A DNA stretch of 43,360 nucleotides from a virus (lineage: Duplodnaviria > Caudoviricetes), in IMG/VR virus record IMGVR_UViG_3300024254_000005, positions 1 to 43,360 of that record. One strand, given 5' to 3'. The notes under the pieces were generated by a model. The model searched no databases and was not told the origin of the DNA. It was given only the letters and a program-made list of their open reading frames with translations. Position numbers and translations under genes: made by a program. Position 1 is the first letter of the stretch. Every line of letters begins with the position of its first letter. This document shows, in pieces, positions 3,379 to 41,107 of the stretch.

Positions 3379-3699
3379 ATGAACCAAAACACATGGGTTT
3401 CGTGGATCACTACAGGAGTTGGCCTGATCGGCTCTGCTGCGGCCACGAACGGGCTGATAAATTCGAGCACGGCGACCACGATCGCCGGCGTCGCAGCGAC
3501 TCTCGTCCCGCTTCTTTGGGGACTGTTCATCCACAGCGACAGTAAGGTCGTGCAGACGGCAGGCGCCATTCCCGGCGTCAAGCCGGTCGAGATCATGCCA
3601 TCCGCGGCGCCCGATCTCCAGCGACTTGCTGCCGATCCGACTATTCCATCGGTCGTCGTGGCTGCGCCGACCTATGTCCCACCCAGCATGAGGAAATAA
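3379..3699 (+). CDS. Putative holin (Pam3-gp28-like), two hydrophobic helices
   Basis: GGAG RBS; two TM-like segments then a short soluble tail; heads the lysis cassette. Confidence 0.55.
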   Translation: MNQNTWVSWITTGVGLIGSAAATNGLINSSTATTIAGVAATLVPLLWGLFIHSDSKVVQTAGAIPGVKPVEIMPSAAPDLQRLAADPTIPSVVVAAPTYVPPSMRK

Positions 3700-3700
3700 C

Positions 3701-3976
3701 ATGAACTTCCAAGTAGTTTGGTCAGCCATCCAGCCGCTTCTCGCGCAGCTCTTGCAAAGCCCGGCGTTCCAAGCACTGATCCAGAAAATCCTCGCCGACA
3801 TCATGGCGAAGATCGCGGCTGGCGTGCATCCTGATACTGCGGTTCAGCAGGCCACGGGTCAGATCGGAGCAGCAGCGCTGCTGCACTTGACGGGCAATCC
3901 AGTGGCGGATTTCACCGCTCTGGTCTCTAACCTCAAGCCGCAGGCTGAGCCCGCATCGGGGAAAACGTTCCCGTGA
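3701..3976 (+). CDS. Hypothetical amphipathic protein in lysis cassette
   Basis: GAGG RBS; coupled to endolysin by GTGA overlap. Confidence 0.6.
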   Translation: MNFQVVWSAIQPLLAQLLQSPAFQALIQKILADIMAKIAAGVHPDTAVQQATGQIGAAALLHLTGNPVADFTALVSNLKPQAEPASGKTFP

Positions 3977-5591: not shown

Positions 5592-5819
5592 GTGACAAAA
5601 AATGAAGACGAATTGAAAGCGATTATTGATAGGGTCAATCGAGAGGCTATGCTCGATAATTTGCGGTCGGATGAAGTAAAAGAGATCAGAAGGATGTTGA
5701 AGACTTACGATTTTATGCGTCGTTTGTCCAAAGGGATAGGGGCGTTTATTGTTGGCGGCGGAGGTATTATAGGACTCATGCAGGTTTTCGATAAACTACT
5801 GGAATGGATCAGAAAATGA
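5592..5819 (+). CDS. Small protein with C-terminal TM helix (holin/antiholin-like)
   Basis: GIGAFIVGGGGIIGLMQVF hydrophobic segment; start uncertain. Confidence 0.5.
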   Translation: MTKNEDELKAIIDRVNREAMLDNLRSDEVKEIRRMLKTYDFMRRLSKGIGAFIVGGGGIIGLMQVFDKLLEWIRK

Positions 5820-26229: not shown

Positions 26230-28498
26230 GGGTGACGTAAATTATTCTGAGCTTGCTGGCGATCCTATAGACGCTTGTAAGGATTGCAAATTCTTCATCA
26301 ACGGAGAAGCTTGTGCCAAGGTCATGGGCGCCATTTCGCCTGAAGGCTGGTGCGAGCTTTACGCTGAGAAGGAAGACGTAAAGGATCGCAATCGAGAGCT
26401 GGGGGGTGACGAGAAGATTCGCGAGGCGGTTCTGAAGCTGGCCAAGCGCGTGGACAAGGCGTTCATGGACCAGTGGGAGCGGGGCAACGATCAGTGTGAC
26501 TATTGGGACATTTACAACACTGTTCTCGGTGTCAAGCAGGGTTACTCTGGCAACTCGCAGATTTACGTTCCCATTGTCAAGGAAGCCATAGACGCGCGCA
26601 AGACGCGATTTGTCAATCAGATTTTCCCCCGCTCACAGCGTAACGTTGAGTGCATCACATCCGATGAGAAGCCTTACCATGTGATGGCTCTCTTGGAGCA
26701 CTACATTCGTAAGACGAAGCTGCGCACGCAGGTTATGCCGGCGTTGATGATCAACGGGGACATCGAGGGGCAATACAACATTTACGTGGGCTGGTCGGAC
26801 AGTGAACGACATGTGGTTTACCGGACCAAGGCAAAGGCTGAGATCGAAGGCGAGGAGATTGAGAACATCGACCCCGACGCGGACGACGACATGGAGACGG
26901 CCGTGGTGGTACATCAGGGGCCGACCGTTGAAGTTCTTTCTGATACTGACGTGGTTGTGGTTCCTGTCTTTGCTTCCTCTGTGGGTGATGCTCTTGCTAA
27001 GGGCGGTGTCGTAGCGATCAAGCGTATCTGGTCTAAAGAACGCTTGAAGCAAGCCGTTGACGATGGGGAGATTGACGAGGAGGTTGGGGAGCTTCTGGAG
27101 AAGGATATCGCTGCTTACGGTACGGGGCAGGATGGCGATCCCAAGACGGCTAAGAAGCATATTGATGCTGCCGGTATCATGTCCGATAAGGACGGTGAAG
27201 CAATCGTTATCTACGAGATGTTTGCACGTTTGAAGGTGGACGGTGAGCGGCGGCTGTGCAGGATTTATTACGCCGGTGGTGTCGAGGGGGAGGAACGTAT
27301 CCCAAGTGCACGGCTTAATCCTTTTTGGAATGACAAGTGTCCGTTGCTCTCTGCAGCGCAGAACAAGTTGAGTGGGTCGTTTAAGGGCGCGTCGAAGATC
27401 GCGGCGGTGGACAAGCTTCAGTACGGCGCGAACGATGTGGTGAACGAGGGGTGGGATAGTGCTGCGTACGCCCTTCTTCCTATCATCATGACCGACCCGA
27501 CGAAGAATCCGCGCACAGGGTCGATGGTTCTTAATCTCGCGGCGATTTGGGAGACGAGCCCAAATGACACGAAGTTTGCCCAGTTCCCTCCGCTATGGAA
27601 GGATGCTTTCTCGATCGTTGCTTCGGCGAAGACAGAAATTTTTCAGGTTCTGTCTGTTTCTCCTGCGGCTATTGCGCAATCTACAGGACAGAAGACTAAA
27701 CGAAATCAAGCGGAGATAGCAAATGAACAGCAAGTTGACATTCTCAGCACAGCCGACGTATGTACGAACATTGAAGATGAAATACTCACGCCCCTCCTCC
27801 GATGGTTTGTCGATCTCGACCATCAATTTAGAGAGCAGCCGATTACAGTTCGAGAATATGGTAAAATGGGGCTTGCTGCGCGGATGGAAGAAATTCCCGT
27901 TATCGAGTCCAATCGTCGGTACGAATTTAGGTGGTTCGGCGTAGAGGCAGCGCGGAATGCGCAAGCTATCCAGATGCAAATAAGCGCGATGAACGTCATC
28001 AAGGGCATTCCGCCGGACCAGTATAAGGGGTACGAGATAAACTTGGTGCCTGTTATAAGTTTGTTGGTGGAGAACGCTTTTGGGTCTCGTATGGCTCCTG
28101 AGATATTCAAGAATTTGAAGTCCAAGCTGTCCATGGCTCCTGACGAGGAGAACAAGTACCTCGCTATGGGGCTTGCTTTGCCTGTGCATGAGCTGGACGA
28201 GGATCAGAAGCACATGCAGGAGCACATGCAGGCCATGGAGAATGGCGATCCCACGGGGGCGGTGCGCGAGCACATGATGCTGCATCGCTTCCAGATGGAA
28301 AAGAAGATGCAAGCGCAGATGGCACAGATGATGCAGATGCAGCGCGGTCCTGGTGGGCCTCTTGGGGCTGGGGGGCCTCCTCCTGGCGGTGCGCCGCGGC
28401 AGGGTGCGGCTTCAGGGCCTCCTAGGGGTGGGCAGGGGCCGGCTGGCGCAATCCATCAGGATAGGCTACAAGATGCTTCAGCAGCTCCAAGGAGATAG
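26210..28498 (+). CDS. Portal protein with N-terminal HiPIP-like Cys4 domain
   Basis: About 760 aa after terL, helical, Pro/Gly tail; N-terminal CxxC-x8-C-x12-C with GWC. Confidence 0.82.
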   Translation: MAKRKSKGDVNYSELAGDPIDACKDCKFFINGEACAKVMGAISPEGWCELYAEKEDVKDRNRELGGDEKIREAVLKLAKRVDKAFMDQWERGNDQCDYWDIYNTVLGVKQGYSGNSQIYVPIVKEAIDARKTRFVNQIFPRSQRNVECITSDEKPYHVMALLEHYIRKTKLRTQVMPALMINGDIEGQYNIYVGWSDSERHVVYRTKAKAEIEGEEIENIDPDADDDMETAVVVHQGPTVEVLSDTDVVVVPVFASSVGDALAKGGVVAIKRIWSKERLKQAVDDGEIDEEVGELLEKDIAAYGTGQDGDPKTAKKHIDAAGIMSDKDGEAIVIYEMFARLKVDGERRLCRIYYAGGVEGEERIPSARLNPFWNDKCPLLSAAQNKLSGSFKGASKIAAVDKLQYGANDVVNEGWDSAAYALLPIIMTDPTKNPRTGSMVLNLAAIWETSPNDTKFAQFPPLWKDAFSIVASAKTEIFQVLSVSPAAIAQSTGQKTKRNQAEIANEQQVDILSTADVCTNIEDEILTPLLRWFVDLDHQFREQPITVREYGKMGLAARMEEIPVIESNRRYEFRWFGVEAARNAQAIQMQISAMNVIKGIPPDQYKGYEINLVPVISLLVENAFGSRMAPEIFKNLKSKLSMAPDEENKYLAMGLALPVHELDEDQKHMQEHMQAMENGDPTGAVREHMMLHRFQMEKKMQAQMAQMMQMQRGPGGPLGAGGPPPGGAPRQGAASGPPRGGQGPAGAIHQDRLQDASAAPRR

Positions 28499-28924
28499 AT
28501 GATGCGTTGGTCTTTAGCACTTCTCCTTTCATTGCTTTGTTGGTCGGCCTGGGCGCAGACGCAGGCAGGACTTGGGGCTTTTGGCTGTACTAATGCTCAG
28601 GTCGGGACGTGTCAGCTTAAAACGGCTGCGGGTAAGCTCTTTGATTTTCAAGTCAGCAATGTAAGTGGTACGGCGACGTGGGCGTTTCTCATGGATACGG
28701 CGACGGTGCCGGTGAACGGTACGATCGCTGGATGTTCCGTAAGTGCGCAGGCGCCTTGCCTGCTGAAAGCTTATCAGCTCAATCCGGCTGGCGATACGTT
28801 GGGGGCTTCTTGGCTTCCTGAATCGCTTTTGTTTTTTGGTGGTCTCGTTATTGCATGCTCGACAACTGCGCCGCCTACGTTGACTCTTAGCACGACGTGC
28901 CTCATGTCGGGAGAGACACAATGA
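28499..28924 (+). CDS. Signal-peptide-bearing beta-rich protein (putative virion accessory)
   Basis: MRWSLALLLSLLCWSAWA/Q; six mature Cys. Confidence 0.7.
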   Translation: MMRWSLALLLSLLCWSAWAQTQAGLGAFGCTNAQVGTCQLKTAAGKLFDFQVSNVSGTATWAFLMDTATVPVNGTIAGCSVSAQAPCLLKAYQLNPAGDTLGASWLPESLLFFGGLVIACSTTAPPTLTLSTTCLMSGETQ

Positions 28925-30030
28925 GATGGTTGTTTGCAGCGCTTCTTATTCTTGTTGCGGCAATTGCGGCACAAGGGGAACTTATTACACATAGCGTAGG
29001 TGGTGGGAGTGTTATTGCAGGCGTTACCCCTGTGACGTGTAGTTCTGGAACGGCGGGGGTGTTGTTTCAATCGAGTGGGAAGGTTGGGTGTGATTCTGGA
29101 TTTACTTATGCAGGGGCAAATGGTGCTGTTAGCATTGCACGAATAGGAACTAACGCAGCTCCTTCTTTGCTTTTTACTGGAGGAGGTGCTTCGACAAACA
29201 CGGGGTTTGCAGGCACGGTAACGCCATCCATAACTGTAGGTGTGAACGGGAATCTGGTTGCAGACTTTGCTTCAGCGACGATCTCTCTGTACCAAAAAAT
29301 AGACTTGGCCGGTGGCGGCCCTTATATCCAGTATGGAGGAAGCCAGAATCCGGCGACAATTCGTTTTGGTCTTGCCGATGCGGCGACTTCTGTACCTCAG
29401 ACGTTTCGTACTCAAGGCATCGTAGCCGGGACGGCGGGCAATGTCGCTGGATCGAATTTTACGCTTGCCGTAAGCCCTGGCGTGGGTTCTGGTGGCGGGG
29501 GCTCGTTTATAGTCCAGACAGCACCGCCGCATGGTTCGGATACTGTCCAGGATACCCTCACATCGGTCTTTTCGATCAATTCTGCAGGTAACATGGCGGC
29601 TACCTTGAATGCTGCCGTAGGAACGAATGCCGTCTGTAACACTCCGGGGACCTTGACGGGGGTGACCGTTCAAGTGTGGGCAACCGGGTGTGCGGCTAGT
29701 TCGGCTCGATTCAAAGAGGGCATTGCAGTTATTGACCGTGAAAGGGCATTTGAGACTGTGTTGGCATTGCGTCCGGTATCTTATTTTTACCGGCCGGATT
29801 ACGCTGATGATCCTGATAAGCATATTGGTTTTACGGCAGAGCAAGTTAATAGTTTGCCGTCTCCGGTTGATGGTTATTCTCTGACTACAACGGAGAAGGA
29901 TAGCGATTTGCTTCATGGGTTTAAATATAATGAAATGGCTCCGCTGCTCGTTGCTGCAATTCAGCAATTGAAAGCGGACAATGATAATCTTCGGGTTGAG
30001 CTTGAAGCCTTGAAACGTAAGGTGCAATAA
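28921..30030 (+). CDS. Tail fibre/spike with C-terminal intramolecular chaperone (peptidase S74) and signal peptide
   Basis: SSARFKEGI...IGFTAEQV...YNEMAPLLVAAIQQL coiled coil; N-terminus MRWLFAALLILVAAIAA. Confidence 0.8.
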   Translation: MRWLFAALLILVAAIAAQGELITHSVGGGSVIAGVTPVTCSSGTAGVLFQSSGKVGCDSGFTYAGANGAVSIARIGTNAAPSLLFTGGGASTNTGFAGTVTPSITVGVNGNLVADFASATISLYQKIDLAGGGPYIQYGGSQNPATIRFGLADAATSVPQTFRTQGIVAGTAGNVAGSNFTLAVSPGVGSGGGGSFIVQTAPPHGSDTVQDTLTSVFSINSAGNMAATLNAAVGTNAVCNTPGTLTGVTVQVWATGCAASSARFKEGIAVIDRERAFETVLALRPVSYFYRPDYADDPDKHIGFTAEQVNSLPSPVDGYSLTTTEKDSDLLHGFKYNEMAPLLVAAIQQLKADNDNLRVELEALKRKVQ

Positions 30031-31382
30031 TGGTGGGTAGATTATTCACTCTACTTACTTATTTGTTTTTTGCTTCTGTGGCGTTGGCGCAGACAGGCTC
30101 ACCTAAGACGCCAACGCAGCTTAATGCGGAAATAAACTCTACGTTTCCTGATAACAGTTCGGGATTGATAACTCCGTTTGGTACTAGGCAGGCTTTGCTT
30201 GACATTGTGGCATCTGGTGTTGTCGCTAACGTCCAGGGGTACGGAGCAAAATGTAACGGGGTTAGCGACGACAGTACGTCTATAAACGCTGCCATTGCTG
30301 CCCTTCCTGTTTTGAACGGAGGCCGTGTTTATCTTCCTGCCTGCGCTAATTCTTATGTAATTAACGCTTCTGCTATTACACTTCCGAACGATCACCAACC
30401 AGTTATTATCGAAGGGGATGGGTGGGACAGTCCTCTATGCGATCCATTTGGAGACGCGCAGTGGGTTGTTAGTGGAAATGTTCGTGGTACAGTTATAAAA
30501 GTTACAGGTACGACGGACGGAATCTTATTTGCTGCGCCAAACTACAATCAAAACTATATAATTCGTAACCTTGCAATTGTCGGCCCTGGAACTGGAACGT
30601 CTAAGGGCATCAATTTCGGGACGTCAACGGCGACTTATGACCAAATAACGAATGTTCTGATCGCTAATTTTTCATCTGGCGTATATATGCAGGGTTCTGG
30701 CAACACGGTATTTCGTGACCTTGCGGTGAGAGGAAACACTGTTGGCGTCAATATGGCCTCCAACGGAACAAACACGACTTTTTACAATGTGCTTGCGGAG
30801 TGTAATGCAACTGGAATTTTAATGTCCGGCATGGGGACTGGAACGCATATCTATAGCGGGCTAGTTCAGGGGAATACTTCGGTTGGAATAAACATAGCCC
30901 CTTCTGTTGTTGCCTTGGCGTCGATCTCCATCGATGGGTTGTGGATGGAGGCCAACGCCAAAGGAATACAGGTAGACACTACAAATTTTGGTGTGTCTAA
31001 CTTGCTTATTTCAAATCACAGAGACACCGGGTCGAATAGCATCGTATTTATAGGTGGTAATACTGTAAATTTTTTCAAGGGGATTAACTGGCAGTTGAGC
31101 GCTGCAGTAACCTTGCCTGCCAACATGGTCAATAGCGGTCTGTATGGTGTCAGCTCTGGCACGTTGACAGACAATTCCAATTGTTCAGTATTGATAAATA
31201 CAACAGTGTCAAATAAGTTGTTTTGTACATACACCGTTGTGCAGCTTCCAATGTCTGCCGCCCAGGGTGCGATGGCGTTCGTGTCCAATGCGACAGCATG
31301 CACACAGAATGTGGCGCCTGTGGGAGGCGGGTCTGTATTTTGCGGCGTCGTGTGGAATGGCAGCGCGTGGGTGGCTTATTGA
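30030..31382 (+). CDS. Tailspike, pectate-lyase-like beta-helix (putative depolymerase) with signal peptide
   Basis: NVQGYGAKCNGVSDDSTSINAAI..GGRVYLP; N/G/I-rich helical repeats; N-terminus ...FFASVALA/Q. Confidence 0.8.
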   Translation: MVGRLFTLLTYLFFASVALAQTGSPKTPTQLNAEINSTFPDNSSGLITPFGTRQALLDIVASGVVANVQGYGAKCNGVSDDSTSINAAIAALPVLNGGRVYLPACANSYVINASAITLPNDHQPVIIEGDGWDSPLCDPFGDAQWVVSGNVRGTVIKVTGTTDGILFAAPNYNQNYIIRNLAIVGPGTGTSKGINFGTSTATYDQITNVLIANFSSGVYMQGSGNTVFRDLAVRGNTVGVNMASNGTNTTFYNVLAECNATGILMSGMGTGTHIYSGLVQGNTSVGINIAPSVVALASISIDGLWMEANAKGIQVDTTNFGVSNLLISNHRDTGSNSIVFIGGNTVNFFKGINWQLSAAVTLPANMVNSGLYGVSSGTLTDNSNCSVLINTTVSNKLFCTYTVVQLPMSAAQGAMAFVSNATACTQNVAPVGGGSVFCGVVWNGSAWVAY

Positions 31383-31481
31383 CCGCCTTGACTTTTTTCC
31401 TGTTTTGTTCCTAAGTGTCTGCTTCGCCTAGCGGGCGTAACCCGCTCCCGAGTTGTGCTCGTTACCGCACTGGAGAGTGAA

Positions 31482-32252
31482 ATGGCTGACGACACCCCGC
31501 AAGATGACGAACTCGATTTGACGGATGACGAGCTTGATCAGGAGCCTGACAACCAGCCGACTGAAGACGACGCCGACGAGGCTGGCGGGGCCGACGAAAA
31601 CGACGATGCCGATGATGAACCGGAGCCGGAAGACGCTTCAGGTTCTCAGGAGCCTCCTGCACCACGGCAACCGGCTTCTCGTGCGGGCCGTACCGTTGCC
31701 GCCCTTCGCGCCGATCGCCGCCGGCAGAACGAAGAACTCGCCGCCCTTCGTCGGGAGATGGCAGAGCTTCGACAGACCCGCCAGCAAGCTCCTGTACAAC
31801 AGGAAGACCCTCGTGTGGAGCAGGAGCGCTTGGCGCTCATGTCCCCCGAGGAGCGTATGGAGTATCGGCTTGCCCGGTCTCTACAGGCGCACCAGCAGCA
31901 GACTTCTGCGATGGTTTTTAATATGCAGACTGCGCAGGACAAGGCAGCGTGGGACGCTAGAACTGCCGGTGACAAGCTGCGATCGAAGCTTGCTGCGGAC
32001 GTGGAGCGTGAGTACCAAGCCTGCATCGCTCGCGGTCAGTATCTACCCCGAGAAAACATTTACATCTATCTTGTCGGGCAGCGGTTCATCGCCAACCGGG
32101 GCAAGGGGGATGGTAAGGCAGCTCGCCGGGTGGAGCGTGAGCGCGTTCGCCCTGCAAGCGGGCGTGGCGATGTGGCGCAGGAGCGTCGGGCGTCTCGCGG
32201 CAGTGGTACAACGGCGGATTTTGAGCGCCGTCATGGAGACATGCAAATCTGA
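31482..32252 (+). CDS. Capsid scaffolding protein
   Basis: Acidic N-terminus, coiled coil, directly before the capsid gene; GGAGAG RBS. Confidence 0.75.
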   Translation: MADDTPQDDELDLTDDELDQEPDNQPTEDDADEAGGADENDDADDEPEPEDASGSQEPPAPRQPASRAGRTVAALRADRRRQNEELAALRREMAELRQTRQQAPVQQEDPRVEQERLALMSPEERMEYRLARSLQAHQQQTSAMVFNMQTAQDKAAWDARTAGDKLRSKLAADVEREYQACIARGQYLPRENIYIYLVGQRFIANRGKGDGKAARRVERERVRPASGRGDVAQERRASRGSGTTADFERRHGDMQI

Positions 32253-32274
32253 AGCGGTGAAAGTTCACCGCTTT
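32252..32274 (+). terminator. Hairpin between scaffold and capsid genes (processing/stabilising or weak terminator)
   Basis: AAGCGGTGAA-AG-TTCACCGCTT. Confidence 0.4.
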
Positions 32275-32291
32275 AACTTCGGAGAGCGGTG

Positions 32292-33632
32292 ATGCCAACC
32301 AATGTTGCTTCTCAATTTTCTGGCGATATAAGCCAGTATATTGCAGACAAGACGCTTCCCCTCGTGCGCCGGCAACTGGTTGTTTACCAGTTCGGTGATC
32401 CTGCGACCCTCCCTAAAGGAAGCGGTACGACTTACACGGCGAGTCGCTACCCGCGTGTGCCGCTGCCGTTTGCGCCACTCTCGGAAGGCGTGCCTCCGAT
32501 TGGGCAATCGATGACGCTGCAGCAGGTCAGCGCGCAAGCCCAGCAATGGGGCGACAAGATCACTATTACCGACGTAGCGGAAATGACGATCAAGCATCCG
32601 CTATTCAAGAAAGCAACGGAGCTGATCGGATTACAGACTGCCGAGACGATGGAACGCAATACGTTCGTCAATCTTCTCGCGGGCAGCCAAATTAATTACG
32701 TCAACACTCGTGGCGCTCGTGCGTCTCTCGTTGCCGGAGACGTGCTCAACCCTCACGAAATCAATCGTGCTTCGGCCATGTTGATTAATCTTGGTGCGCC
32801 CCGGTTCATGGGTGACGAGATGACCGACATGAAGCTGCAGGCAGATGCAGGTGGCGCCAAGGCATCGAGCAACCCACGCAAGATGCCGCATTACGTGGCG
32901 GTGGCGCATCCCTTCCCGCTTGGCGATCTTTCCGAGAACCAGACGATTGTGACGGCCTGGAGCTACAGCGATCTCAATCGCCTTTACAACTACGAGGTTG
33001 GCGAGTGGCGAGGCATCCGGTTCTGTCAGACCAACATGGTTCCGACGTTTACCGGAGTTGCGCAAGTTAACCCAGTTGCGGTTGCCGGCGGCACGTTGGC
33101 AGCGACGAACTACTTTGTTATCGTCACTGGATCAGACACGCAAAATCAGTACGAGTCGCGTATCTATCAGGTGTCCGCTTCCACGGCAGTCGGCGCCAAC
33201 GGTGCGCTTCAGGTGACGATGCCGGCGACGGCAGGATTCACTTACAGCGTCTATGTCGGCACTACCAACACGCCGTTCAATCTCGGGCTTAGTGCTTCGG
33301 GTCCGACTTCTGGTCCTCTCGCGGGGCAGGCCACGCAGCTTACGCCGGGCGCCGTGGTGACGGTGACGGGCATCGGCCTTGCGCAGACCCCGCCGGCTGC
33401 ACCGGCTACGGGTGTGACGGTTTACCCGACGTTCATCTTCGGTCGAGGGGCCTACACGCAGGTTGTCCTCGACAACATGAAGATGACTTACCTGAAAGAG
33501 CCGGATAAGTCCGATCCGCTGAATCAGCTGCGAGTTGTTGGCTGGAAGGTATTTTATGGAACTCTGATTAGCAACCAGCAGTTCTTCATGCGGATCGAAT
33601 CCACGTCGGCCTTCAGCGCCACCTTCGGCTGA
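32292..33632 (+). CDS. Major capsid protein, N4-gp56 type
   Basis: QFG...LPKGSG, LSEGVPP, EVGEWRGIRF and DKSDPLNQ..VGWK. Confidence 0.9.
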   Translation: MPTNVASQFSGDISQYIADKTLPLVRRQLVVYQFGDPATLPKGSGTTYTASRYPRVPLPFAPLSEGVPPIGQSMTLQQVSAQAQQWGDKITITDVAEMTIKHPLFKKATELIGLQTAETMERNTFVNLLAGSQINYVNTRGARASLVAGDVLNPHEINRASAMLINLGAPRFMGDEMTDMKLQADAGGAKASSNPRKMPHYVAVAHPFPLGDLSENQTIVTAWSYSDLNRLYNYEVGEWRGIRFCQTNMVPTFTGVAQVNPVAVAGGTLAATNYFVIVTGSDTQNQYESRIYQVSASTAVGANGALQVTMPATAGFTYSVYVGTTNTPFNLGLSASGPTSGPLAGQATQLTPGAVVTVTGIGLAQTPPAAPATGVTVYPTFIFGRGAYTQVVLDNMKMTYLKEPDKSDPLNQLRVVGWKVFYGTLISNQQFFMRIESTSAFSATFG

Positions 33633-33644
33633 TCGGAGAGCACA

Positions 33645-33923
33645 ATGTCGTACAGAATCACCTACCAAGTGAATGTTGATTGGGTCGGGGATGGTATCGG
33701 TCCAATGGGTGGTAATACTGCGGCCTCTGTCGGTATGGCTGCGGCCGGCGGCGCGCAGCGCAAGGCGTTTTTTAACGCCACTCCGGTTGGTCAGATGACG
33801 AAGACGTTTCTGGCTGCTGACGTGACCACGTTGACGAACGCCATGGCTGCGGACATCGCTGCGCAGATGAACGTTCCGGCCAACCTTGCGCAAATTCAGA
33901 ACTTCTCCACGGGGACGGGCTGA
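33645..33923 (+). CDS. Hypothetical virion protein
   Basis: GGAGAG RBS; follows capsid gene. Confidence 0.65.
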   Translation: MSYRITYQVNVDWVGDGIGPMGGNTAASVGMAAAGGAQRKAFFNATPVGQMTKTFLAADVTTLTNAMAADIAAQMNVPANLAQIQNFSTGTG

Positions 33924-34219
33924 TGGCTACAAGCACGCTTGGGACGACAGCGAACAACTCGCTTACGTCCCTCATTTTTGGTGGTGCGATGAACACCACC
34001 GATCTTGCGACGATCGCGCAAGGAATCAAAAATGATCTCGTCAATGGCAACCCGGTTTGGCCTGGGGCGTACGCGCAAAATGGCCTTCTCTACGTGCCCA
34101 ACCGGGGGGTGCTCAGGGTGCTTCCTGGGGACTACGTGGGGATTGATGCGCAAGGCTGGCCAATCCTTTTATCGGCCAATACGATCGCTGCAGCAGGAGC
34201 CCCTTGGGTACACACATGA
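33923..34219 (+). CDS. Hypothetical virion protein
   Basis: TGATG coupling; LYVPNRGVLRVLPGDYVGID. Confidence 0.65.
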   Translation: MATSTLGTTANNSLTSLIFGGAMNTTDLATIAQGIKNDLVNGNPVWPGAYAQNGLLYVPNRGVLRVLPGDYVGIDAQGWPILLSANTIAAAGAPWVHT

Positions 34220-34665
34220 GCCGAAAAGAAACCCCGATCGATCGTACGAAGCTTCCTCTCAATCTGCAGATTCTCACTGACGAGGAGTTGCAGGAGCTTC
34301 GGCAGGAGGCCCGCAAGACAGTTGTTGCTGAGCTGTCCAAGCAGGCGCGTGACGAGTATTTTGCCAAGGCACTGGCAGAAGCGCGACAGGCGAGCATAGC
34401 CGAGGAAGAACTGATTCACGTCCAGATTGACGTGGCGCCGTGGTGTCCAGGGGCGACGATTGACGGAATTCAGTATTTTCACGGTTACACATATCCCGTG
34501 AAAAAGTCCGTGGCGTGTGTTCTGTTTGAACAGATGTGGCGGACGTGGGAGCATCAAGACGAGCTGGACGGTCGCGGCAGGAGCGAAGCGTACCGCCGGC
34601 CGCGCAACCTTTCGATCGGGCCACGGCACCTGGGGGTGTCGAATACGGCTTTGCTGGGAGTGTAA
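34216..34665 (+). CDS. Hypothetical protein
   Basis: ATGA overlap; structural operon. Confidence 0.65.
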   Translation: MSRKETPIDRTKLPLNLQILTDEELQELRQEARKTVVAELSKQARDEYFAKALAEARQASIAEEELIHVQIDVAPWCPGATIDGIQYFHGYTYPVKKSVACVLFEQMWRTWEHQDELDGRGRSEAYRRPRNLSIGPRHLGVSNTALLGV

Positions 34666-34677
34666 ACAGGAGATTTT

Positions 34678-35142
34678 ATGGAAACCCCGCATACGAAGAC
34701 GCCAGCTGAGTTGGCGGTTGCGATCACTGTGTCAACTCAGATACCTCCGAACCGCAACATCGTCCTACAGACGTACCTTGGACAGGAGCAACCGGAACGG
34801 TCCTTCAACCATCTCATGGATAAGCTGGGGCGGGTAAGCGATCGGCAGGAGGCGTTCTATAAAAAGAAGGACTTGGTTCTTGGGTTGGCGCATGAGAAGA
34901 AACTTCTCGCGCAGCTTACTGAGGACTATAATCGGATCGAGGGCCGTTCGCAGGTTGCGTGGGAGGCCAAGGGAAAGAAAGGTCCGCATAAGCTCAGCCC
35001 GCAGGAGGAGCAGCAGAAAGGGGCTGCGGAAGTCAACATCAAGCGGTACAAAGAGAGCATTGCCAAGATCGAGAATGAGATCGCGGAGTACGAGGAACTT
35101 CTGAATGCCCCTGCAAGCGCAGCAAATATGCAGTCTGGCTAG
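34678..35142 (+). CDS. Hypothetical coiled-coil protein
   Basis: AGGAG RBS. Confidence 0.65.
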   Translation: METPHTKTPAELAVAITVSTQIPPNRNIVLQTYLGQEQPERSFNHLMDKLGRVSDRQEAFYKKKDLVLGLAHEKKLLAQLTEDYNRIEGRSQVAWEAKGKKGPHKLSPQEEQQKGAAEVNIKRYKESIAKIENEIAEYEELLNAPASAANMQSG

Positions 35143-35893
35143 GCAGGAGGCGAAGTGCCCCGGCTTCACGGCGCAGTCTGGTCAGTGTCTCAATTCATGC
35201 CTTCAGGACTTATGCATGAATTGGGACTTGGATGCTGCCATGGATACGCAGTTCTACACGACCAATACGATTAACAATCTTCCTTCTGATTACCTTCGCA
35301 CTCGTGTTGTTGATGGTAAGGATGACATATTTTATACTATAAACGGAGTGCCTTATCCACTTATTCAGATTACTCTGGCCGAATATGACTGGCTCGTACA
35401 GACGCCGGGGTTTCAATCTTACCCGCAGTTTTATGCAACGAACTTGTCGGTTTCACCGGCTCAAATTCTGCTGTGGCCCCCACCTTCGGGGCAGTACCCA
35501 GTGACGCATCGTTATCAGAAGCAGATGGCGGACATTGCGACGCCGGAGACTTCTGTGTCGGTCCCATGGTTTCTCAACACGCAGATTTTGATCCGGTGGA
35601 CGGCTGGGCTGCTTATGGGGCTTACTGGAGACCAGAGACAGGCCGAGTACATGGGGGATGACGAGGAGCGCTACCCGCTCGGGGCTCTGTCTCTCTTGAA
35701 AAAGTATCTACGAAACGCCAGCGATCGTGAGGGGGCTGTAAAGACGGTCGGGCTTGACAGACGTAGGTTTGGCAGGTCGTTCGATAGGTTGAAGAATACG
35801 AAAAATATAGGTTGGATGGTATTGACAGGTTGGATGGTACAGGCTATGTTCGAGCATCTCATTGGAGGGATGCTATGGACGATTTGGAGCTAG
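35105..35893 (+). CDS. Head-tail adaptor (tail tubular A-like)
   Basis: LPSDYLR, GFQSYPQFY and LLWPPP motifs; position before nozzle gene. Confidence 0.7.
   Translation: MPLQAQQICSLARQEAKCPGFTAQSGQCLNSCLQDLCMNWDLDAAMDTQFYTTNTINNLPSDYLRTRVVDGKDDIFYTINGVPYPLIQITLAEYDWLVQTPGFQSYPQFYATNLSVSPAQILLWPPPSGQYPVTHRYQKQMADIATPETSVSVPWFLNTQILIRWTAGLLMGLTGDQRQAEYMGDDEERYPLGALSLLKKYLRNASDREGAVKTVGLDRRRFGRSFDRLKNTKNIGWMVLTGWMVQAMFEHLIGGMLWTIWS
35822..35850 (+). promoter_or_regulatory. Sigma70 promoter of the HNH gene
   Basis: TTGACA, 17 bp, TATGTT; then GGAGG and ATG 35875. Confidence 0.7.
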
Positions 35894-36471
35894 CAAGGCA
35901 ACGTCGCAATGCAATTAGACGCGCTCAATATGCGGCTGATGGTGGAAAGCGAAGGGCGGAAAACCAAGTTTGGAAGGATGCGCATAGAGAAGAAGTGCGC
36001 GCTGCTTCTAGGGAGTACCAAAGGGTACTTCGGAAAAGCCGGCCTGAGCATGCAAAGGCTCTTCAAAAGGCGAGCTACGTTAGGAATAGAGAAAAGAGAA
36101 TAGCATCTACTAAAGCTTGGCATGTTGCCAATCCAGGGTATAACAGTAAAAAGCAAGCAGAGTATCGAGAAAAGGACCCTGTAAAGTTTATGCTTAGAAA
36201 TTACAAAAATCGAGCGGCAGATATTGGTGTCATGTTTTCTCTTACAAGAGACAGCATAGTCATTCCTGATATATGTCCTGTTTTAGGCATTCCTATTTAC
36301 AAAGGAGAAAAGCACGGGCGGGATAATTCTCCTTCTGTTGATCGTTTTGATACTAAAAAGGGGTACACACCAGACAATATCAGAGTTGTTTCATGGCGTG
36401 CTAACCGTTTGAAATCGGACGGCACTCTCGACGAGTTTCGTAAGATCGTTGCATACATGGAAAACTCGTGA
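35875..36471 (+). CDS. Free-standing HNH-like (homing) endonuclease
   Basis: CPVLG...SPSVDR...KGYTPDNIRVVSWRANRLK; basic helical N-terminus; AT-rich. Confidence 0.8.
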   Translation: MDDLELARQRRNAIRRAQYAADGGKRRAENQVWKDAHREEVRAASREYQRVLRKSRPEHAKALQKASYVRNREKRIASTKAWHVANPGYNSKKQAEYREKDPVKFMLRNYKNRAADIGVMFSLTRDSIVIPDICPVLGIPIYKGEKHGRDNSPSVDRFDTKKGYTPDNIRVVSWRANRLKSDGTLDEFRKIVAYMENS

Positions 36472-38159
36472 TGTCCACCCTCCCCGGCACACCGTTGGTT
36501 TGGGCGCCGAGAACGGCAGCAGACACGTTGGATGCGTCCAGCAACGGTTCTGGAACCATGTCCAACCTCGCCAATCTCATTCCTGATCCTACCACTAGAA
36601 ATTTATGGCAGTGCCGTCCGGCTGCTGTCAAGATCACCGACCTTTCTGCGAATGGATTTGCAGGGGCTACTTTCATATCCTGCTGGATGAATGTTGGCAC
36701 TCGTGTCTATGGTATGGTTTCTACCACACGTAACGCAGGACGGGACGAACCTTTCTGCTATGACGTGTTGACGCAGATGTTCATTCCGATTGCCGGGGTG
36801 ACAGCGGCGAACTCGCCGATCAGTCCTGCTACGTTCGGCAATTGGAACCCCCCTCATATGGAGCTGATTGGTTCCAAGATCATCGTTGCGCACCCAGGTT
36901 TTACAGGGGCGGCGGGCGCATTCTTTGGCGTCATTGACGTTCTCAATCCGTTTGCACTGACGTGGACCGCGACCAACACAGCGCCGACTGCCCTCGTGTT
37001 TCCTCCCCAGTGGGTAAGCAACTTCAATGGTCGGTGCTGGTTTCTTGTAAACCCGCCAAATCAGCAACCAGCAGCATATTTTTCCGACGAGCTGCTTCCG
37101 ACGCAGATAACAAATGCGAATCAGATTTTGACTTTTGACGATAACAACCCTCTGACGTGCGCTGCTGGTCTCGCTCTAAGCAATCAGCTCGGGGGTATTA
37201 TCCAGGCGTTGATGGTTTTCAAGAGTGTCGATAACATATACCAGATTACTGGGGACGCTGCTTTTGGCACGCTAGCTAAGAATACTTTGAATGTTGCAAC
37301 TGGCACGTTTGCTCCTAATACGGTTTGCTCCACCGAGAAAGGGCTTCTTTTCATGGCCCCGGATGGAGTGCGATTGATCGATTTCAATGCGAAAGTAAGC
37401 GACCCCATAGGCAAGGATGGGGATGGGATCACGGTGCCGTTCATTTCCATTCTTGTCCCTTCCCGCGCGGCTGCGTCTTACAATAGTGGTGTGTACCGGG
37501 TGCAGGTGCAGAACGGCGCAGCCCAGGCGATCGGGTCCGGGTTTTCGTCTGGGTTTTCTTCCGCGTTCGGCGGCGGTGGGCCTGTGCAACAGCAGGAGTG
37601 GTGGTATGACGACGTGCGTTCTCTCTGGTCGGGGCCGCACACGACAAAAATGTCTATTGGGCTTGAATACCAGAATACGTTCTTGATTACGATCCAAAAC
37701 GCTGGGGCGGTGATTTTTCAGAGCGATCCGTTCCAGTCATTCACGAGCACGTTTGTTGAGAATGGTGTTCCTCTTACCTATGCTTGGCAAACTTCGTACC
37801 TTCCCGATACGGACCAGATGGCGGAAGTGTGCATGCTTCAAAGCACTCTGCATATGGCCTTGGTGTCGGGGCAGTCAACGGTCGTCACGGCCATTAATCA
37901 GGACGGTGTTCCCTTGGATCAAGTCACGATAGCGTCTTCAGGAACGCCTACCAATTGGAATCAATTCAACTGGAATAACGCCAACTGGAACGGGACGACG
38001 TTGGGGAATGCGCTCTACCCTCGACCAATGGAGTGGACCGGGCCTCTTGTCTTCAGGCGATTGTCCCTTCTTGCGGCAGGCTTGTCGGCCCAAGGACTGA
38101 AGATCGGCCGGCTCCACATGCGGTATCAAGTGCTCAACTACCTACAACAGACGGGTTGA
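36471..38159 (+). CDS. Tail nozzle (tubular B / P22 gp10-like) protein
   Basis: 562 aa, beta-rich; follows adaptor; NLIPDP..RP N-terminus. Confidence 0.7.
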   Translation: MSTLPGTPLVWAPRTAADTLDASSNGSGTMSNLANLIPDPTTRNLWQCRPAAVKITDLSANGFAGATFISCWMNVGTRVYGMVSTTRNAGRDEPFCYDVLTQMFIPIAGVTAANSPISPATFGNWNPPHMELIGSKIIVAHPGFTGAAGAFFGVIDVLNPFALTWTATNTAPTALVFPPQWVSNFNGRCWFLVNPPNQQPAAYFSDELLPTQITNANQILTFDDNNPLTCAAGLALSNQLGGIIQALMVFKSVDNIYQITGDAAFGTLAKNTLNVATGTFAPNTVCSTEKGLLFMAPDGVRLIDFNAKVSDPIGKDGDGITVPFISILVPSRAAASYNSGVYRVQVQNGAAQAIGSGFSSGFSSAFGGGGPVQQQEWWYDDVRSLWSGPHTTKMSIGLEYQNTFLITIQNAGAVIFQSDPFQSFTSTFVENGVPLTYAWQTSYLPDTDQMAEVCMLQSTLHMALVSGQSTVVTAINQDGVPLDQVTIASSGTPTNWNQFNWNNANWNGTTLGNALYPRPMEWTGPLVFRRLSLLAAGLSAQGLKIGRLHMRYQVLNYLQQTG

Positions 38160-38161
38160 AG

Positions 38162-39808
38162 ATGAAAAGGTTTCTTTTAGGGCTATTTCTTTCGTTGTGG
38201 GCTTCGCTGGCGTCGGCCGGCGTTAATTGCACGATGCCCTTCACGTTCGTTCCTGGGACGCTGGCGGACGCTAATCAGGTCAATGCCAACTTTGCTGCCG
38301 CCGTTGCCTGCTTCCTCAATGCGGCTGGAGCGGGAAATAACAACGATATTACGGCGCTCCTTGCACTGACGACGCCACTCAGCACGGCACAGGGCGGATC
38401 GTCCATCTATATCGGAGGCACGTCCACAGGGTCGGCTAATGCGCAAGTGATCGCATCGCCTTCTCCTACGGGTTTCGCTTTGACTCGTGGCCTCAGCATC
38501 CTGTTTACGGCAGGATTTACGAATACGGGGGCGACGCAGATCAATGTCAATGGGACGGGGTTGGTCAACCTGTTCCGGCAGTCTCCCAGTGGCCCGCAAG
38601 CTCTCACTGGAGGCGAAGTCGTAGCTAATGATTTGACTTGGGCGATTTACGACGGTGTGCAATTCCAACTGGTGAACAGCGGAGCACAATACGGGGGCTT
38701 TGGTCCCCTCACGTCGCTTTCATCTGCGGCTCCTGATCTTGGGACGATTGCAAGTCACAATATCACGTTCACTGGCAATACGACTATAACAGCGTTCGGG
38801 TCGAGCGCAAGCACGACATTTCCATTATATAGGCTTAATTTTTCGACAGTTTTGGTTCTTACGCATAATGGAACCAGCTTGATCCTTCCGAGTTCGACAA
38901 ACATCACGACGGCTTCTGGTGACAACGCAGTTGCTCTCTACCTCGGGGCTGGAAATTGGCAGGTCATCAGTTACGATCGTGCTAATGGTACATCTGTTGT
39001 TAGTCCTACTCCGTTATGCGGTTTCAGTGGGCTATCGATTTCTAACGGGGCTAGTAACTCGATCATCAATTGGTCTTTCAACAATTCGGTGCTAATCAAT
39101 CCTACGGGAAGCGTCCCAGTATTTTCTACAGCCAAGTCGGGTTCGATCAATATCACGACGGGGACGGCTGGAACGAGCACGGCTGGAGGGATGGATGGCA
39201 CAGGGCCGGGAAATAACACTTTTTCTTATTTATACGCAATTTACAATGGTACAACATGGAGTGCAGTTGGCAGTATTACGACTCCTGCAACTGGACCTGT
39301 CATGCCGGCGGGCTACACTTTCCTTTGCTACATGGGCGCGATTAAGACGAATGGAGCGGGGAATTTGTTTGGGACTCTCATTTTAGGGAACGAAGCTCAG
39401 TATGTTTCGGGTGGTGCAAATAATACAACTCTTCCTTTGATTACCAATGGTGTTCAAGGTAGTACGAATTGTGGAACGGCAGCGCCGGGATGGACTGCTT
39501 TTACGGTACGGGGGAATTCAGGTGCAGGCGTATGGATGCCTTCTACGGCTGTGAGGGGGAAATATGTTTTGACGAATGATTTTGCGGGGGGTGGGGCGTC
39601 TGCCCTTTTGCTTGCGCCTAACGCTTCTTATGGAGGGCTGGGAGGAACGCAGGTTAATCCCGGTCCTCTTTCTGTTGTTGCGGCGGCTACTGCAGGGAGC
39701 ACAACAGGAGACATGCTTTTTGAGGCTAACACCGTTCAATATTGTTCTAGTACGGCGCAGGGAGCTGTGCTGGCTTTTGGTTGGAAAGACACTGTGAATG
39801 CTAACTGA
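38162..39808 (+). CDS. Tail fibre protein with signal peptide
   Basis: MKRFLLGLFLSLWASLASA/G; PFTFVPGTLADANQVNANF; NTGATQINVNG; YDGVQFQL. Confidence 0.78.
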   Translation: MKRFLLGLFLSLWASLASAGVNCTMPFTFVPGTLADANQVNANFAAAVACFLNAAGAGNNNDITALLALTTPLSTAQGGSSIYIGGTSTGSANAQVIASPSPTGFALTRGLSILFTAGFTNTGATQINVNGTGLVNLFRQSPSGPQALTGGEVVANDLTWAIYDGVQFQLVNSGAQYGGFGPLTSLSSAAPDLGTIASHNITFTGNTTITAFGSSASTTFPLYRLNFSTVLVLTHNGTSLILPSSTNITTASGDNAVALYLGAGNWQVISYDRANGTSVVSPTPLCGFSGLSISNGASNSIINWSFNNSVLINPTGSVPVFSTAKSGSINITTGTAGTSTAGGMDGTGPGNNTFSYLYAIYNGTTWSAVGSITTPATGPVMPAGYTFLCYMGAIKTNGAGNLFGTLILGNEAQYVSGGANNTTLPLITNGVQGSTNCGTAAPGWTAFTVRGNSGAGVWMPSTAVRGKYVLTNDFAGGGASALLLAPNASYGGLGGTQVNPGPLSVVAAATAGSTTGDMLFEANTVQYCSSTAQGAVLAFGWKDTVNAN

Positions 39809-39850
39809 TCTGTGCTAAGAGGTTCGAACCACTGAAGAAAGGTCAAAGCC

Positions 39851-41107
39851 ATGAAGTTCAATAAAGCTCTTGCTGCCTTTGCCGCCGTGGCTGTGACCGC
39901 TGCGGTTGCCTATGCTGCCAATATCCCCTTGATCACGGGTCCGCAGGACCCCAGTCAGCTCAACGCGTCGCTGAACAATCTAATCAACCAGATTAACTCT
40001 GGCATCACGCAGACGACGATCGCGCAGTTCAATTCGAACGACCGCAACATCCTTGACAATGGCACGCTTGAGATCACGCAACGCGGTACGGGCGTTATCA
40101 CTTGCGCTGCCAATGCGGGTATCACTTCGGCAGCTTACGGTGCCGATCGCTGGGGGTGCCAAGCCAACGTAGCTGTGGGTGCGGGACGGCAGCAGGTGAT
40201 TACGGCAACGCCGACGCCGCCCGCGGGGTTCAAGAACGCCATGACGTTGTTCCGCACGTCGGGCGCTCTTACGCAGCCGATATGCACTTGGCAGGAAATC
40301 CCCACTGCGGACGTACTCAAACTTTCCGGCCAGCAGGTGCTTTTTTCGGCTTACCTTCAGGCTCTTGCGGGCATGTCGGCTGACAATGGTGCAATTGCCA
40401 ACCTTGTTATTATAACGGGGACGGGCACTGATGAAGGCTTCGGCACTCCTACGGCCTCTCCGGCAATCACGCCGGCTTGGACGGGCATAGCTACGCTCGC
40501 CAACACGGCGACACCCGCGTTGAGTGCGACGGCTTGGTCTCGACCTGTTGCAACTGGCGTTGTGGCATCCACTGTGACCGAGATGGCAGTCGGGCTGTGC
40601 TTTACACCGACTGCTACAGGTGCAGGAGCTACGGACGGTTTTGCCTGGACCGGCGCACAGTTGGAGGTAGTTGGCGCAGGTGTAACAACGCCTTCGACGT
40701 TCAGCTTCAAGGCGGCGGCGTATGAGCTTCGGCAGGCGCAGCGGTATTTCTACCGAATTTCGGAAGGCGCTGCTGCGACTTTCCGCGGTAATGGGCATGT
40801 CACTACGGCCGGCGCGGGAGACGCCAATGGCAAGCTGCAGTGGCAGATTATCTTTCCGATGACGATGTTCAAAGTGCCTACGATGACCTACACCGCGGGT
40901 TTTGCGGGATTCACCACTACGGGTGAAACGGCGGCAACTGCTTGCTCTGCTTTAGCCACCGACGCCACTTTGGGCACCATCGCTGCATCCACACAAATGG
41001 TCCCGGTGCAGTGTAGTTTGACCAGTTCAACTATTGCGGTTGGCTTGAGCATGAGCATCGTGGACAATGGCGGTTCGGGGGTCGTCAACGCTAGCGCGGA
41101 CTTCTGA
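39851..41107 (+). CDS. Fibre-tip/carbohydrate-binding-like virion protein with signal peptide
   Basis: MKFNKALAAFAAVAVTAAVAYA/A; RNILDNG..I.QRG, YGADRW and ELRQAQRYF. Confidence 0.75.
   Translation: MKFNKALAAFAAVAVTAAVAYAANIPLITGPQDPSQLNASLNNLINQINSGITQTTIAQFNSNDRNILDNGTLEITQRGTGVITCAANAGITSAAYGADRWGCQANVAVGAGRQQVITATPTPPAGFKNAMTLFRTSGALTQPICTWQEIPTADVLKLSGQQVLFSAYLQALAGMSADNGAIANLVIITGTGTDEGFGTPTASPAITPAWTGIATLANTATPALSATAWSRPVATGVVASTVTEMAVGLCFTPTATGAGATDGFAWTGAQLEVVGAGVTTPSTFSFKAAAYELRQAQRYFYRISEGAAATFRGNGHVTTAGAGDANGKLQWQIIFPMTMFKVPTMTYTAGFAGFTTTGETAATACSALATDATLGTIAASTQMVPVQCSLTSSTIAVGLSMSIVDNGGSGVVNASADF

What the first reader, a model, noticed from the sequence alone, without database searches (positions are those of the whole stretch)
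28499..41107. Five fibre/spike proteins carry Sec signal peptides and even Cys counts: candidate periplasmic route for virion maturation
Seen: ORFs at 28499 (MRWSLALLLSLLCWSAWA/Q), 28921 (MRWLFAALLILVAAIAA/QG), 30030 (MVGRLFTLLTYLFFASVALA/Q), 38162 (MKRFLLGLFLSLWASLASA/G) and 39851 (MKFNKALAAFAAVAVTAAVAYA/A) each have a basic n-region, a hydrophobic core and a small-residue AxA-type site. Their mature chains hold 6, 4, 8, 6 and 6 Cys, many in close pairs. Capsid, portal, adaptor and nozzle have no such leader. Established: tailed-phage fibres, S74-chaperoned spikes and beta-helix depolymerases normally fold in the reducing cytoplasm without leaders. Inference: this phage exports its adsorption proteins, folds them with host Dsb enzymes and attaches them only when the inner membrane is breached. 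An alternative is that they act in the envelope as receptor-masking or exit factors.
Basis: partly seen in the sequence, partly recalled or inferred. Interest (0 to 1): 0.9.

Follow-up and report, generated by a model that had tools for sequence, protein, structure and literature searches.

The report
Phage tail fibres exported to periplasm
Five late genes of a complete soil phage begin with predicted bacterial export signals and carry paired cysteines, and relatives of its main fibre that lack the signal also lack the first cysteine pair, so the phage likely folds its host-gripping fibres outside the cytoplasm and would add them to the particle only when the cell bursts.

Summary
Observation confirmed. 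The five ORFs pass a rule-based Sec test (SignalP was not available); core virion proteins do not (0 of 193).

The leaders look functional. In 98 homologues of the post-nozzle fibre D, with the cut placed by homology, Ala sits at -3 and at -1 in 89 each. Twelve leaderless homologues start at that cut and lack the first Cys pair. Cys counts are even in 81 of 87 exported family proteins, against 45 of 118 core proteins.

D, B and C match fibre or spike modules; A is a small jelly-roll. No leaderless fibre was found in this genome.

New here: in 4 of 83 distinct adaptors of relatives, the tail adaptor runs in frame through an internal signal-like segment into such a fibre.

Best reading: periplasmic folding, attachment at lysis (0.68). 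Virion incorporation is untested, a docking prediction gave no answer, and leaderless versions are common. This scan noted similar cases in at least 27 other genomes; ten paper searches found no description.

The parts
28499..28924 (+). Protein A: Sec-type leader, then a 122-aa all-beta jelly-roll with three Cys pairs; possibly a decoration protein
   Evidence: Rule pass; cluster 8 of 8 with leader; model pLDDT 89.7; closest predicted folds are uncharacterised phage proteins, TM up to 0.78; solved matches only Z 7.0 or less
28921..30030 (+). Protein B: Sec-type leader, fibre body, C-terminal S74 chaperone; Cys 40/57 and 239/257
   Evidence: PF13884 E 2.7e-9; PHROG tail fibre E 2e-10; S74-type Ser-x-x-x-Lys at 260-265; Cys 239 and 257 kept in 4 of 4 leader-bearing rows, only the first in the leaderless row
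30030..31382 (+). Protein C: Sec-type leader, conserved 50-aa N-terminal module (C-anchor), beta-helix spike or depolymerase-like body; 8 Cys
   Evidence: PF12708 E 1.7e-8; PHROG tail spike, weak, E 0.0036; C-anchor profile finds 21 proteins: 14 with leader, 4 leaderless, 3 fused to the adaptor
38162..39808 (+). Protein D: post-nozzle tail fibre with Sec-type leader and three covarying Cys pairs
   Evidence: profile hits SU10 tail fibre 7z47 E 7e-8; domain 82-177 matches the Pa193 fibre, Z 8.8, rmsd 2.8, 91 aligned
39851..41107 (+). Protein E: Sec-type leader, short helical N-module, likely carbohydrate-binding fibre body; 6 Cys
   Evidence: Cluster 7 of 7 with leader; Cys 145 and 250 invariant in 8 rows; Atlas neighbours are viral, one cluster with PF02018 in 16% of members, a lead only
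35105..35893 (+). Tail adaptor, leaderless; fused to a C-type fibre through an internal signal-like segment in some relatives
   Evidence: PF24175 SU10 adaptor E 3e-8; fusions in L039, L041, L042/L043, L100 and L163
36471..38159 (+). Putative nozzle, leaderless; named by position and size only
   Evidence: No Pfam, PHROG or PDB sequence hit; weak profile match to the pre-fibre gene of RHph_N3_19, probability 49%
32292..33632 (+). Major capsid protein, leaderless
   Evidence: PHROG 1357 E 2e-32; 0 of 52 in its cluster pass the rule
26210..28498 (+). Putative portal, leaderless; named by position after the terminase
   Evidence: 0 of 36 in its cluster pass the rule; no family hit
3379..5202 (+). 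Lysis genes: holin (3379-3699) and GH108 plus CHAP endolysin with an N-terminal membrane segment (3988-5202)
   Evidence: PF23987, PF05838, PF05257; membrane segment, and no convincing lipoprotein spanin by my lipobox rule

Best explanation
This short-tailed phage likely sends its fibre, spike and decoration-like proteins through the host Sec channel into the periplasm, where the leader is predicted to be cut and the paired cysteines would be oxidised, and the finished appendages would dock on the particle only when lysis breaks the inner membrane. Shown from sequence: conserved leaders, cut register, paired and covarying cysteines, fibre-type domains, leaderless core proteins, a holin and an endolysin. 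Inferred: actual export and cleavage (about 0.93), disulfide formation by host enzymes (about 0.85), incorporation into virions (about 0.75), and timing at lysis. The advantage is unknown. Disulfide-hardened fibres for soil, keeping fibres away from cytoplasmic defence sensors, and a second use of spare fibres in the envelope are all possible.
For: (1) Leader anatomy independent of my rule: in 98 of 105 leader-bearing D homologues the cut could be placed by the anchor motif; Ala at -3 in 89, at -1 in 89, position -2 free, n-region charge +2 in 88, 6 acidic residues among 1979; leader identity 30% against 58% for the first 40 mature residues. (2) Natural control: 12 of 120 homologues are leaderless, and their Met sits at the -1 position in 10 by script, 11 by eye. 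All 12 lack the anchor Cys pair; the 102 rule-positive ones have two Cys there (79) or none (23), never one. Total Cys is even in 94 of 102 against 5 of 12; density 1.11 against 0.29 per 100 aa. (3) Covariation of C23-C50 r 0.95, C286-C389 r 0.97, C437-C528 r 0.72 in 86 rows. (4) Family-wide: even Cys in 81 of 87 leader-bearing proteins of 130 aa or more, 45 of 118 core, 44 of 82 other; 33 of 39 in a second locus set. (5) D is a fibre by motif, fold and slot, and leaderless orthologues fill the same post-nozzle slot. (6) Pfam and PHROG fibre or spike hits among 42 window proteins fall only on B and C, so no leaderless receptor-binding protein is evident. (7) Adaptor-signal-fibre fusions in 4 of 83 distinct adaptor ends, 72-86% identical to each other, with even mature Cys in the three counted: 8, 8, 12. 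(8) T4 long fibres attach to fibreless particles as a separate step (PMC3004832, passages); S74 fibres can follow a signal peptide in Bdellovibrio (PMC10769870, passages).
Against: No virion, proteome or RNA data exist for this phage, and no cultured member of the family was found (capsid matches below 32% identity; nozzle no match). The signal test is my own rule, not SignalP. Cys-Cys distances were not measurable because models come without coordinates. Export is not universal: in the second locus set 16 of 26 post-nozzle genes have a leader, 8 are leaderless D-type fibres and 2 are other genes, so export is not needed for this tail type. On the tree the link between leader and Cys pair rests on only 4 well-supported independent pairs, sign test median p 0.5. 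Most exported proteins have no Pfam family (66 of 80 scanned). Some exported genes in the same slots look like envelope factors (an O-antigen ligase-like gene; outer-membrane-protein-like genes by eye). Virion disulfides can form without leaders, at or after lysis as proposed for Jabs (10.64898/2026.07.24.740622, one passage).
Confidence: 0.68

Rival explanations
1. The proteins are exported but act in the envelope or medium as free factors: masking receptors against superinfection, or cutting capsule and exopolysaccharide to ease exit. They never join the virion.
For: Leaders and Cys pairs fit any secreted protein. C has a polysaccharide-lyase-like beta-helix. Envelope-type genes share these slots in relatives. 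The PBR31 authors read a signal-bearing, tail-hydrolase-like esterase as a lysis aid (PMC10975493, one passage).
Against: D holds the post-nozzle slot that leaderless orthologues also fill and keeps an exact N-terminal register. The genome shows no other fibre. The C-type module is fused to the tail adaptor in 4 distinct relatives. This rival is more plausible for A, C or E singly than for D.
Confidence: 0.17
2. The hydrophobic leaders are membrane tethers. The tail is built at the inner membrane, and fibres or the adaptor stay anchored until late cleavage releases the particle.
For: In the fusions the adaptor must stay joined to the hydrophobic segment, since no stop and no well-supported in-frame start lies near the junction. 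Seven of 9 short adaptor run-ons are 18-26 aa long and moderately hydrophobic.
Against: The free leaders have canonical Ala-x-Ala cut sites and short h-regions. 70 of 83 adaptors end at a plain stop with no tether. Disulfide-type pairing points to the periplasmic side.
Confidence: 0.1
3. The leaders are not functional, or the true starts lie downstream, and the fibres fold in the cytoplasm with cysteines oxidised after lysis.
For: Post-lysis oxidation is proposed for other phages. Leaderless forms of D and of the C-anchor exist.
Against: Starts are coupled to upstream stops. Leaders diverge in sequence but keep charge, hydrophobicity and Ala at -3 and -1. The Cys pair is absent from all 12 leaderless homologues.
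Confidence: 0.05

Closest known systems
Podophage tail fibres and spikes of SU10 (PDB 7z47), phiM1 (8vbx), LME-1, and Rhizobium phage RHph_N3_19 EVB99_099
   Same: Adaptor-nozzle-fibre gene order; shared hinge motif; D residues 182-273 are 53% identical to the RHph_N3_19 fibre.
   Different: The RHph_N3_19 fibre is leaderless with 1 Cys. The LME-1 paper has no occurrence of 'signal' or 'disulf' (PMC12407071, passages). Cytoplasmic folding of classical fibres is recalled knowledge.
Bdellovibrio bacteriovorus MAT fibres (PMC10769870, passages)
   Same: Signal peptide plus trimeric phage-like fibre, 13 of 21 ending in an S74 chaperone; D's last domain resembles the Bd2133 tip, Z 5.7.
   Different: MATs are bacterial surface adhesins with their own 130-aa N-domain, not parts of a phage morphogenesis operon.
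Disulfide-cross-linked virions such as Jabs (10.64898/2026.07.24.740622, one passage)
   Same: Cysteine bonds in virion proteins, proposed to form at or after lysis.
   Different: No signal peptide is mentioned there (0 occurrences); here the pairs sit only on exported proteins and core proteins show no even bias.
Burkholderia phage BcepC6B gp19
   Same: Cultured podophage; annotated tail fibre whose start passes my leader rule, with 4 Cys.
   Different: It sits beside a leaderless fibre, gp18, whereas the window shows no leaderless fibre. I found no data on gp19 in virions.
Filamentous phage coat proteins such as M13 pIII (recalled)
   Same: A virion adsorption protein made with a signal peptide and periplasmic disulfides.
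   Different: Membrane-anchored and extruded without lysis; this phage has a portal-type head, a terminase, a holin and an endolysin.

Membership tests
Sec/SPI substrate | Basic n-region, uncharged h-region, small residues at -3 and -1 | tested here: met
   Rule pass 5 of 5; homology-anchored profile in 98 D homologues
Sec/SPI substrate | SignalP-type prediction | not testable with these tools
   No SignalP, Phobius or TMHMM on the script machine
Sec/SPI substrate | Export and cleavage in cells | not testable with these tools
   Needs reporter fusions or N-terminal sequencing
Podophage tail fibre (protein D) | Fibre-type motifs and domains | tested here: met
   7z47 E 7e-8, 8vbx E 3e-4; Pa193 fibre domain Z 8.8; BFVD tail-fibre hits
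Podophage tail fibre (protein D) | Encoded after adaptor and nozzle | tested here: met
   Window order; 23 of 25 post-nozzle genes with leader; 24 of 26 D-like by eye in the second set
Podophage tail fibre (protein D) | Present in the virion as a docked trimer | not testable with these tools
   No cultured member and no virion data
S74-chaperoned fibre (protein B) | C-terminal S74 domain with catalytic Ser and Lys | tested here: met
   PF13884 37.6 bits against cut-off 22; motif at 260-265; autocleavage itself not tested
Beta-helix tailspike (protein C) | Right-handed beta-helix with polysaccharide-lyase-like fold | tested here: met
   PF12708 34.9 bits against cut-off 27; activity not tested
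Fibre or spike (protein A) | Fibre or spike domains | tested here: inconclusive
   Single jelly-roll; best solved matches Z 7.0 or less, among them a turret and a cement protein
Disulfide-bonded protein | Cys residues occur and vary in pairs | tested here: met
Disulfide-bonded protein | Cys pairs at bonding distance | not testable with these tools
   Models were returned without coordinates
Bdellovibrio MAT family | Conserved 130-aa beta-rich domain after the signal peptide | not tested
   Not compared directly; D's N-module is a short strand region and a helix

The most novel reading that the evidence does not exclude
A widespread family of soil podophages builds its virion in two compartments: head and tail core in the cytoplasm, appendages in the periplasm through Sec (a few through Tat), joined at lysis. 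Some members encode the tail adaptor and a fibre as one precursor split by an internal signal peptide, which would leave the adaptor tethered to the inner membrane.
Probability: 0.62. Interest if true: 0.92.

Novelty: categorically new. Interest (0 to 1): 0.82.

Why it matters
Tailed-phage particles are held to be finished in the cytoplasm before lysis (recalled textbook view). A periplasmic branch would make lysis an assembly step, tie infectivity to host Sec and disulfide machinery, and answer for these phages how virion disulfides arise, a question the Jabs preprint leaves open. It would also mean that signal peptides do not rule a phage protein out of the virion, which affects annotation. 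The natural leader-bearing and leaderless pairs, the adaptor fusions and cultured BcepC6B gp19 make it directly testable.

Tried and rejected
Complex prediction of two adaptors with three D anchors (residues 20-110): no answer, score 0.00, controls not folded; not used for or against.

Profile search of 1.84 billion representatives: not run, queue full.

Sequencing runs: 24 soil DNA holders, no RNA holder listed; no reads laid.

PDB sequence searches: nothing for D alone, B, adaptor or nozzle. Foldseek of full-length D against PDB gave only weak, mixed hits.

No cultured relative by capsid, nozzle or E. Host not determined: one MAG contig labelled Terracidiphilus holds a relative (capsid 82%), but a binned phage contig is weak evidence, and D shares a domain with Rhizobium phages.

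Independent-pairs test of leader against Cys pair: right direction, too few pairs.

Absence of spanins as a family trait: rejected as unclear, since 2 of 5 whole relatives have a lipoprotein. Export as an all-or-none genome trait: rejected, since 5 of 9 loci with leaderless D hold other leader-bearing genes.

The rule column for short adaptor run-ons was discarded as an artefact of padding. The Tat regex also hit two non-Tat starts and two early genes.

Papers checked by passage without relevant content: PMC3556154, 10.64898/2026.10.24.761521, PMC13314943, PMC10792529, PMC3426561, PMC3517404, PMC4936722. For PMC13419713 only the abstract was held. No supplements were read; phage annotation tables there could list such leaders.
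Full report
SETTING. The window is a complete 43.2-kb virus record with a 113-base terminal repeat, held in soil metagenomes. It encodes a terminase, capsid, SU10-type adaptor, holin and GH108/CHAP endolysin; portal and nozzle are named by position only. No tail tube or tape-measure gene was recognised, so it reads as a podophage. No cultured relative was found: capsid matches in 50,697 phage records are below 32% identity. The host is unknown.

OBSERVATION. The five ORFs, which I call A (28499), B (28921), C (30030), D (38162) and E (39851), are as described. SignalP was not available, so I wrote an n/h/c-region rule and a gene caller blind to leaders. Six of 47 called genes pass: the five and 5816. 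The rule passes 1 of 1289 internal Met positions in core proteins. Mature Cys counts are 6, 4, 8, 6, 6.

THE FAMILY. A capsid search gave 58 viral loci; I dropped L058, a weak partial match. Among 859 called genes the clusters for capsid (52), scaffold (42), portal (36), adaptor (34), nozzle (28) and terminase (25) have no leader; one small core cluster has 1 of 35. The clusters of D (11), A (8) and E (7) all have one. Many unrelated fibre-like genes in three variable slots (after the portal, after the adaptor, after the nozzle) also have leaders (the output was cut and one search printed the missing loci). After dereplication at 70% identity, Cys counts are even in 81 of 87 leader-bearing proteins of 130 aa or more that have any Cys, in 45 of 118 core proteins and in 44 of 82 other proteins. 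A second set of 45 loci, found with the adaptor profile, gave 33 of 39 even, with 0 of 41 adaptors and 0 of 32 nozzles passing the rule. All five whole relatives examined carry a leader-bearing D and 5-8 rule-positive genes, some of them false positives by eye.

THE LEADERS LOOK REAL. The first 200 residues of D found 359 homologues; the best 120 were examined. 102 pass the rule, 12 are leaderless and 6 are partial, miscalled or near misses. With the cut placed by the anchor motif (98 of 105 usable), Ala is at -3 in 89 and at -1 in 89, -2 is free, the n-region charge is +2 in 88, and leaders are 30% identical to each other against 58% for the next 40 residues. In the leaderless forms the initiator Met occupies the -1 position (10 of 12 by script, 11 by eye), so both routes give the same mature N-terminus. 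A leaderless C homologue likewise starts two residues before the predicted mature end (P0125). For 12 leaderless genes with DNA in hand, 11 have an in-frame stop shortly upstream and none has a hidden leader.

THE CYSTEINES FOLLOW THE LEADER. The anchor region holds two Cys in 79 and none in 23 leader-bearing D homologues, never one, and none in all 12 leaderless ones. All six Cys of D fall into covarying pairs. In E, Cys 145 and 250 are invariant and the other two pairs come and go together by eye. The leaderless state changes 9 times on the tree, at least 4 forced, but the independent-pairs test is too small to be significant. Distances could not be measured.

WHAT THE PROTEINS ARE. D models well (pLDDT 89.9) as an N-terminal helix followed by beta domains that match the Pa193 fibre (Z 8.8), tailspike and capsid-spike domains (Z 6-7) and the Bd2133 tip (Z 5.7). 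Its profile finds the SU10 and phiM1 fibres, and residues 182-284 are about 50% identical to proteins of cultured Rhizobium phages; the two I examined are leaderless. B has an S74 chaperone and C a beta-helix. E resembles viral proteins, with a weak carbohydrate-binding lead. A is a single jelly-roll without a clear solved match, so 'fibre or spike' is not shown for A. Among the 42 window proteins scanned, fibre or spike hits fall only on B and C. If the five stayed out of the virion, the phage would have no evident receptor-binding protein.

A FUSION THAT LINKS EXPORT TO THE TAIL. The 50-residue module behind C's leader recurs on 21 proteins: 14 with a leader, 4 leaderless and 3 inside a longer chain. 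In those chains the adaptor has no stop. Its conserved basic end runs into an uncharged hydrophobic stretch, a Pro-Ala-x-Ala site and then the module. Among 83 distinct adaptor ends, 70 stop plainly (15 of them followed by a leader-bearing gene), 9 have short run-ons and 4 are fusions, 72-86% identical to each other and in two places on the tree. A further close variant came from metagenomes (L163). My rule, which is built for N-terminal leaders, accepted the junction in 3 of the 4. The mature parts counted have 8, 8 and 12 Cys, and no well-supported in-frame start lies at the junctions. Either the internal signal works, leaving a membrane-tailed adaptor inside and a fibre outside, or the fibre hangs covalently on the tail. 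Both readings tie this fibre class to the tail (inference).

AGAINST. Nothing shows these proteins in a particle. In the second locus set only 16 of 26 post-nozzle genes carry a leader; 8 are leaderless D-type fibres with 0-2 Cys and 2 are other genes. Export is thus optional and not a whole-genome trait. 66 of 80 scanned proteins (72 rule-positive, 3 Tat-like, 5 leaderless) have no Pfam family, and some genes in these slots look like envelope factors. Disulfides can arise without export.

MECHANISM. Shown: leaders, cut register, Cys pairing, fibre domains, lysis genes. Inferred: Sec export, cleavage by signal peptidase I, oxidation by host enzymes (no phage Dsb-like family among the 42 proteins scanned), folding in the periplasm, and docking once the holin breaks the inner membrane. 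Late docking is plausible: T4 long fibres attach to fibreless particles as a separate step (PMC3004832, passages). The window has no lipoprotein spanin by my rule, which could prolong mixing inside the outer membrane, but 2 of 5 relatives have a lipoprotein, so I do not lean on this. I put the full route at 0.68, envelope-only roles at 0.17, membrane tethering at 0.10 and non-functional leaders at 0.05.

KNOWN SYSTEMS AND NOVELTY. Closest are ordinary podophage fibres, Bdellovibrio MAT adhesins (PMC10769870, passages), disulfide-linked virions such as Jabs (one passage) and, from memory, filamentous phage pIII. Cultured BcepC6B gp19 passes my rule, and the PBR31 paper notes a signal peptide on a tail-hydrolase-like esterase but assigns it to lysis (PMC10975493, one passage). 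Ten full-text searches (listings seen, passages read for the papers named) found no description of exported tail fibres. The library lacks most subscription journals, and I read no supplements. This scan has noted the pattern in at least 27 other genomes. Those notes gave me the BcepC6B, LME-1 and MAT leads and are not independent support. A word search found no note of the adaptor fusion.

VERDICT. Observation confirmed; export and disulfide pairing very likely; virion incorporation likely but untested. If true it is a new mode of tailed-phage assembly. Interest 0.82.

Noticed in passing
L039:12886, L041:7962, L042/L043:10747, L100, L163: Tail adaptor fused in frame to a C-type fibre through a hydrophobic segment ending in Pro-Ala-x-Ala; L045 has the unfused form with a similar leader. 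No earlier scan note held all my search words.
   Followed up: yes
L028:4857, L035:13335, L036:2237, L054:20505: Twin-arginine (Tat-like) leaders on genes in the fibre slots; L028:4857 has a weak laminin-G lectin hit.
   Followed up: partly
window 6259-7569: GARS-like ATP-grasp gene at the end of the late operon, present in 5 of 5 whole relatives at 55-91% identity, about 25% identical to PurD; function unknown.
   Followed up: partly
window 35875-36471 and 35816-35893: Free-standing HNH-type endonuclease between adaptor and nozzle; the adaptor runs on for 25 moderately hydrophobic residues, with similar run-ons in L018, L024, L120, L121, L146.
   Followed up: partly
L035:14652, L039:15965, L041:10871, L045:13932, L010:5276: Exported proteins just before the nozzle that look like small outer-membrane beta-barrels by eye (recalled likeness); no Pfam hit for the three scanned.
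   Followed up: partly
L017:17041: O-antigen ligase-like membrane protein (PF04932, below cut-off) among the fibre genes; homologues in L028 and L033.
   Followed up: no
window 3988-5202 and 5816-6259: Endolysin with an N-terminal membrane segment and Pro-rich linker; no lipoprotein spanin found in the window by my rule; 5816 is a membrane-anchored 147-aa protein with 2 Cys.
   Followed up: partly
L063:15440, 19608 (MW202637): A distant spring-water phage (capsid 30% identical) also has leader-bearing genes after the capsid gene and after the nozzle-position gene.
   Followed up: no
window 1-113 and 43248-43360: 113-base terminal repeat; the window is a complete circularly permuted genome.
   Followed up: yes
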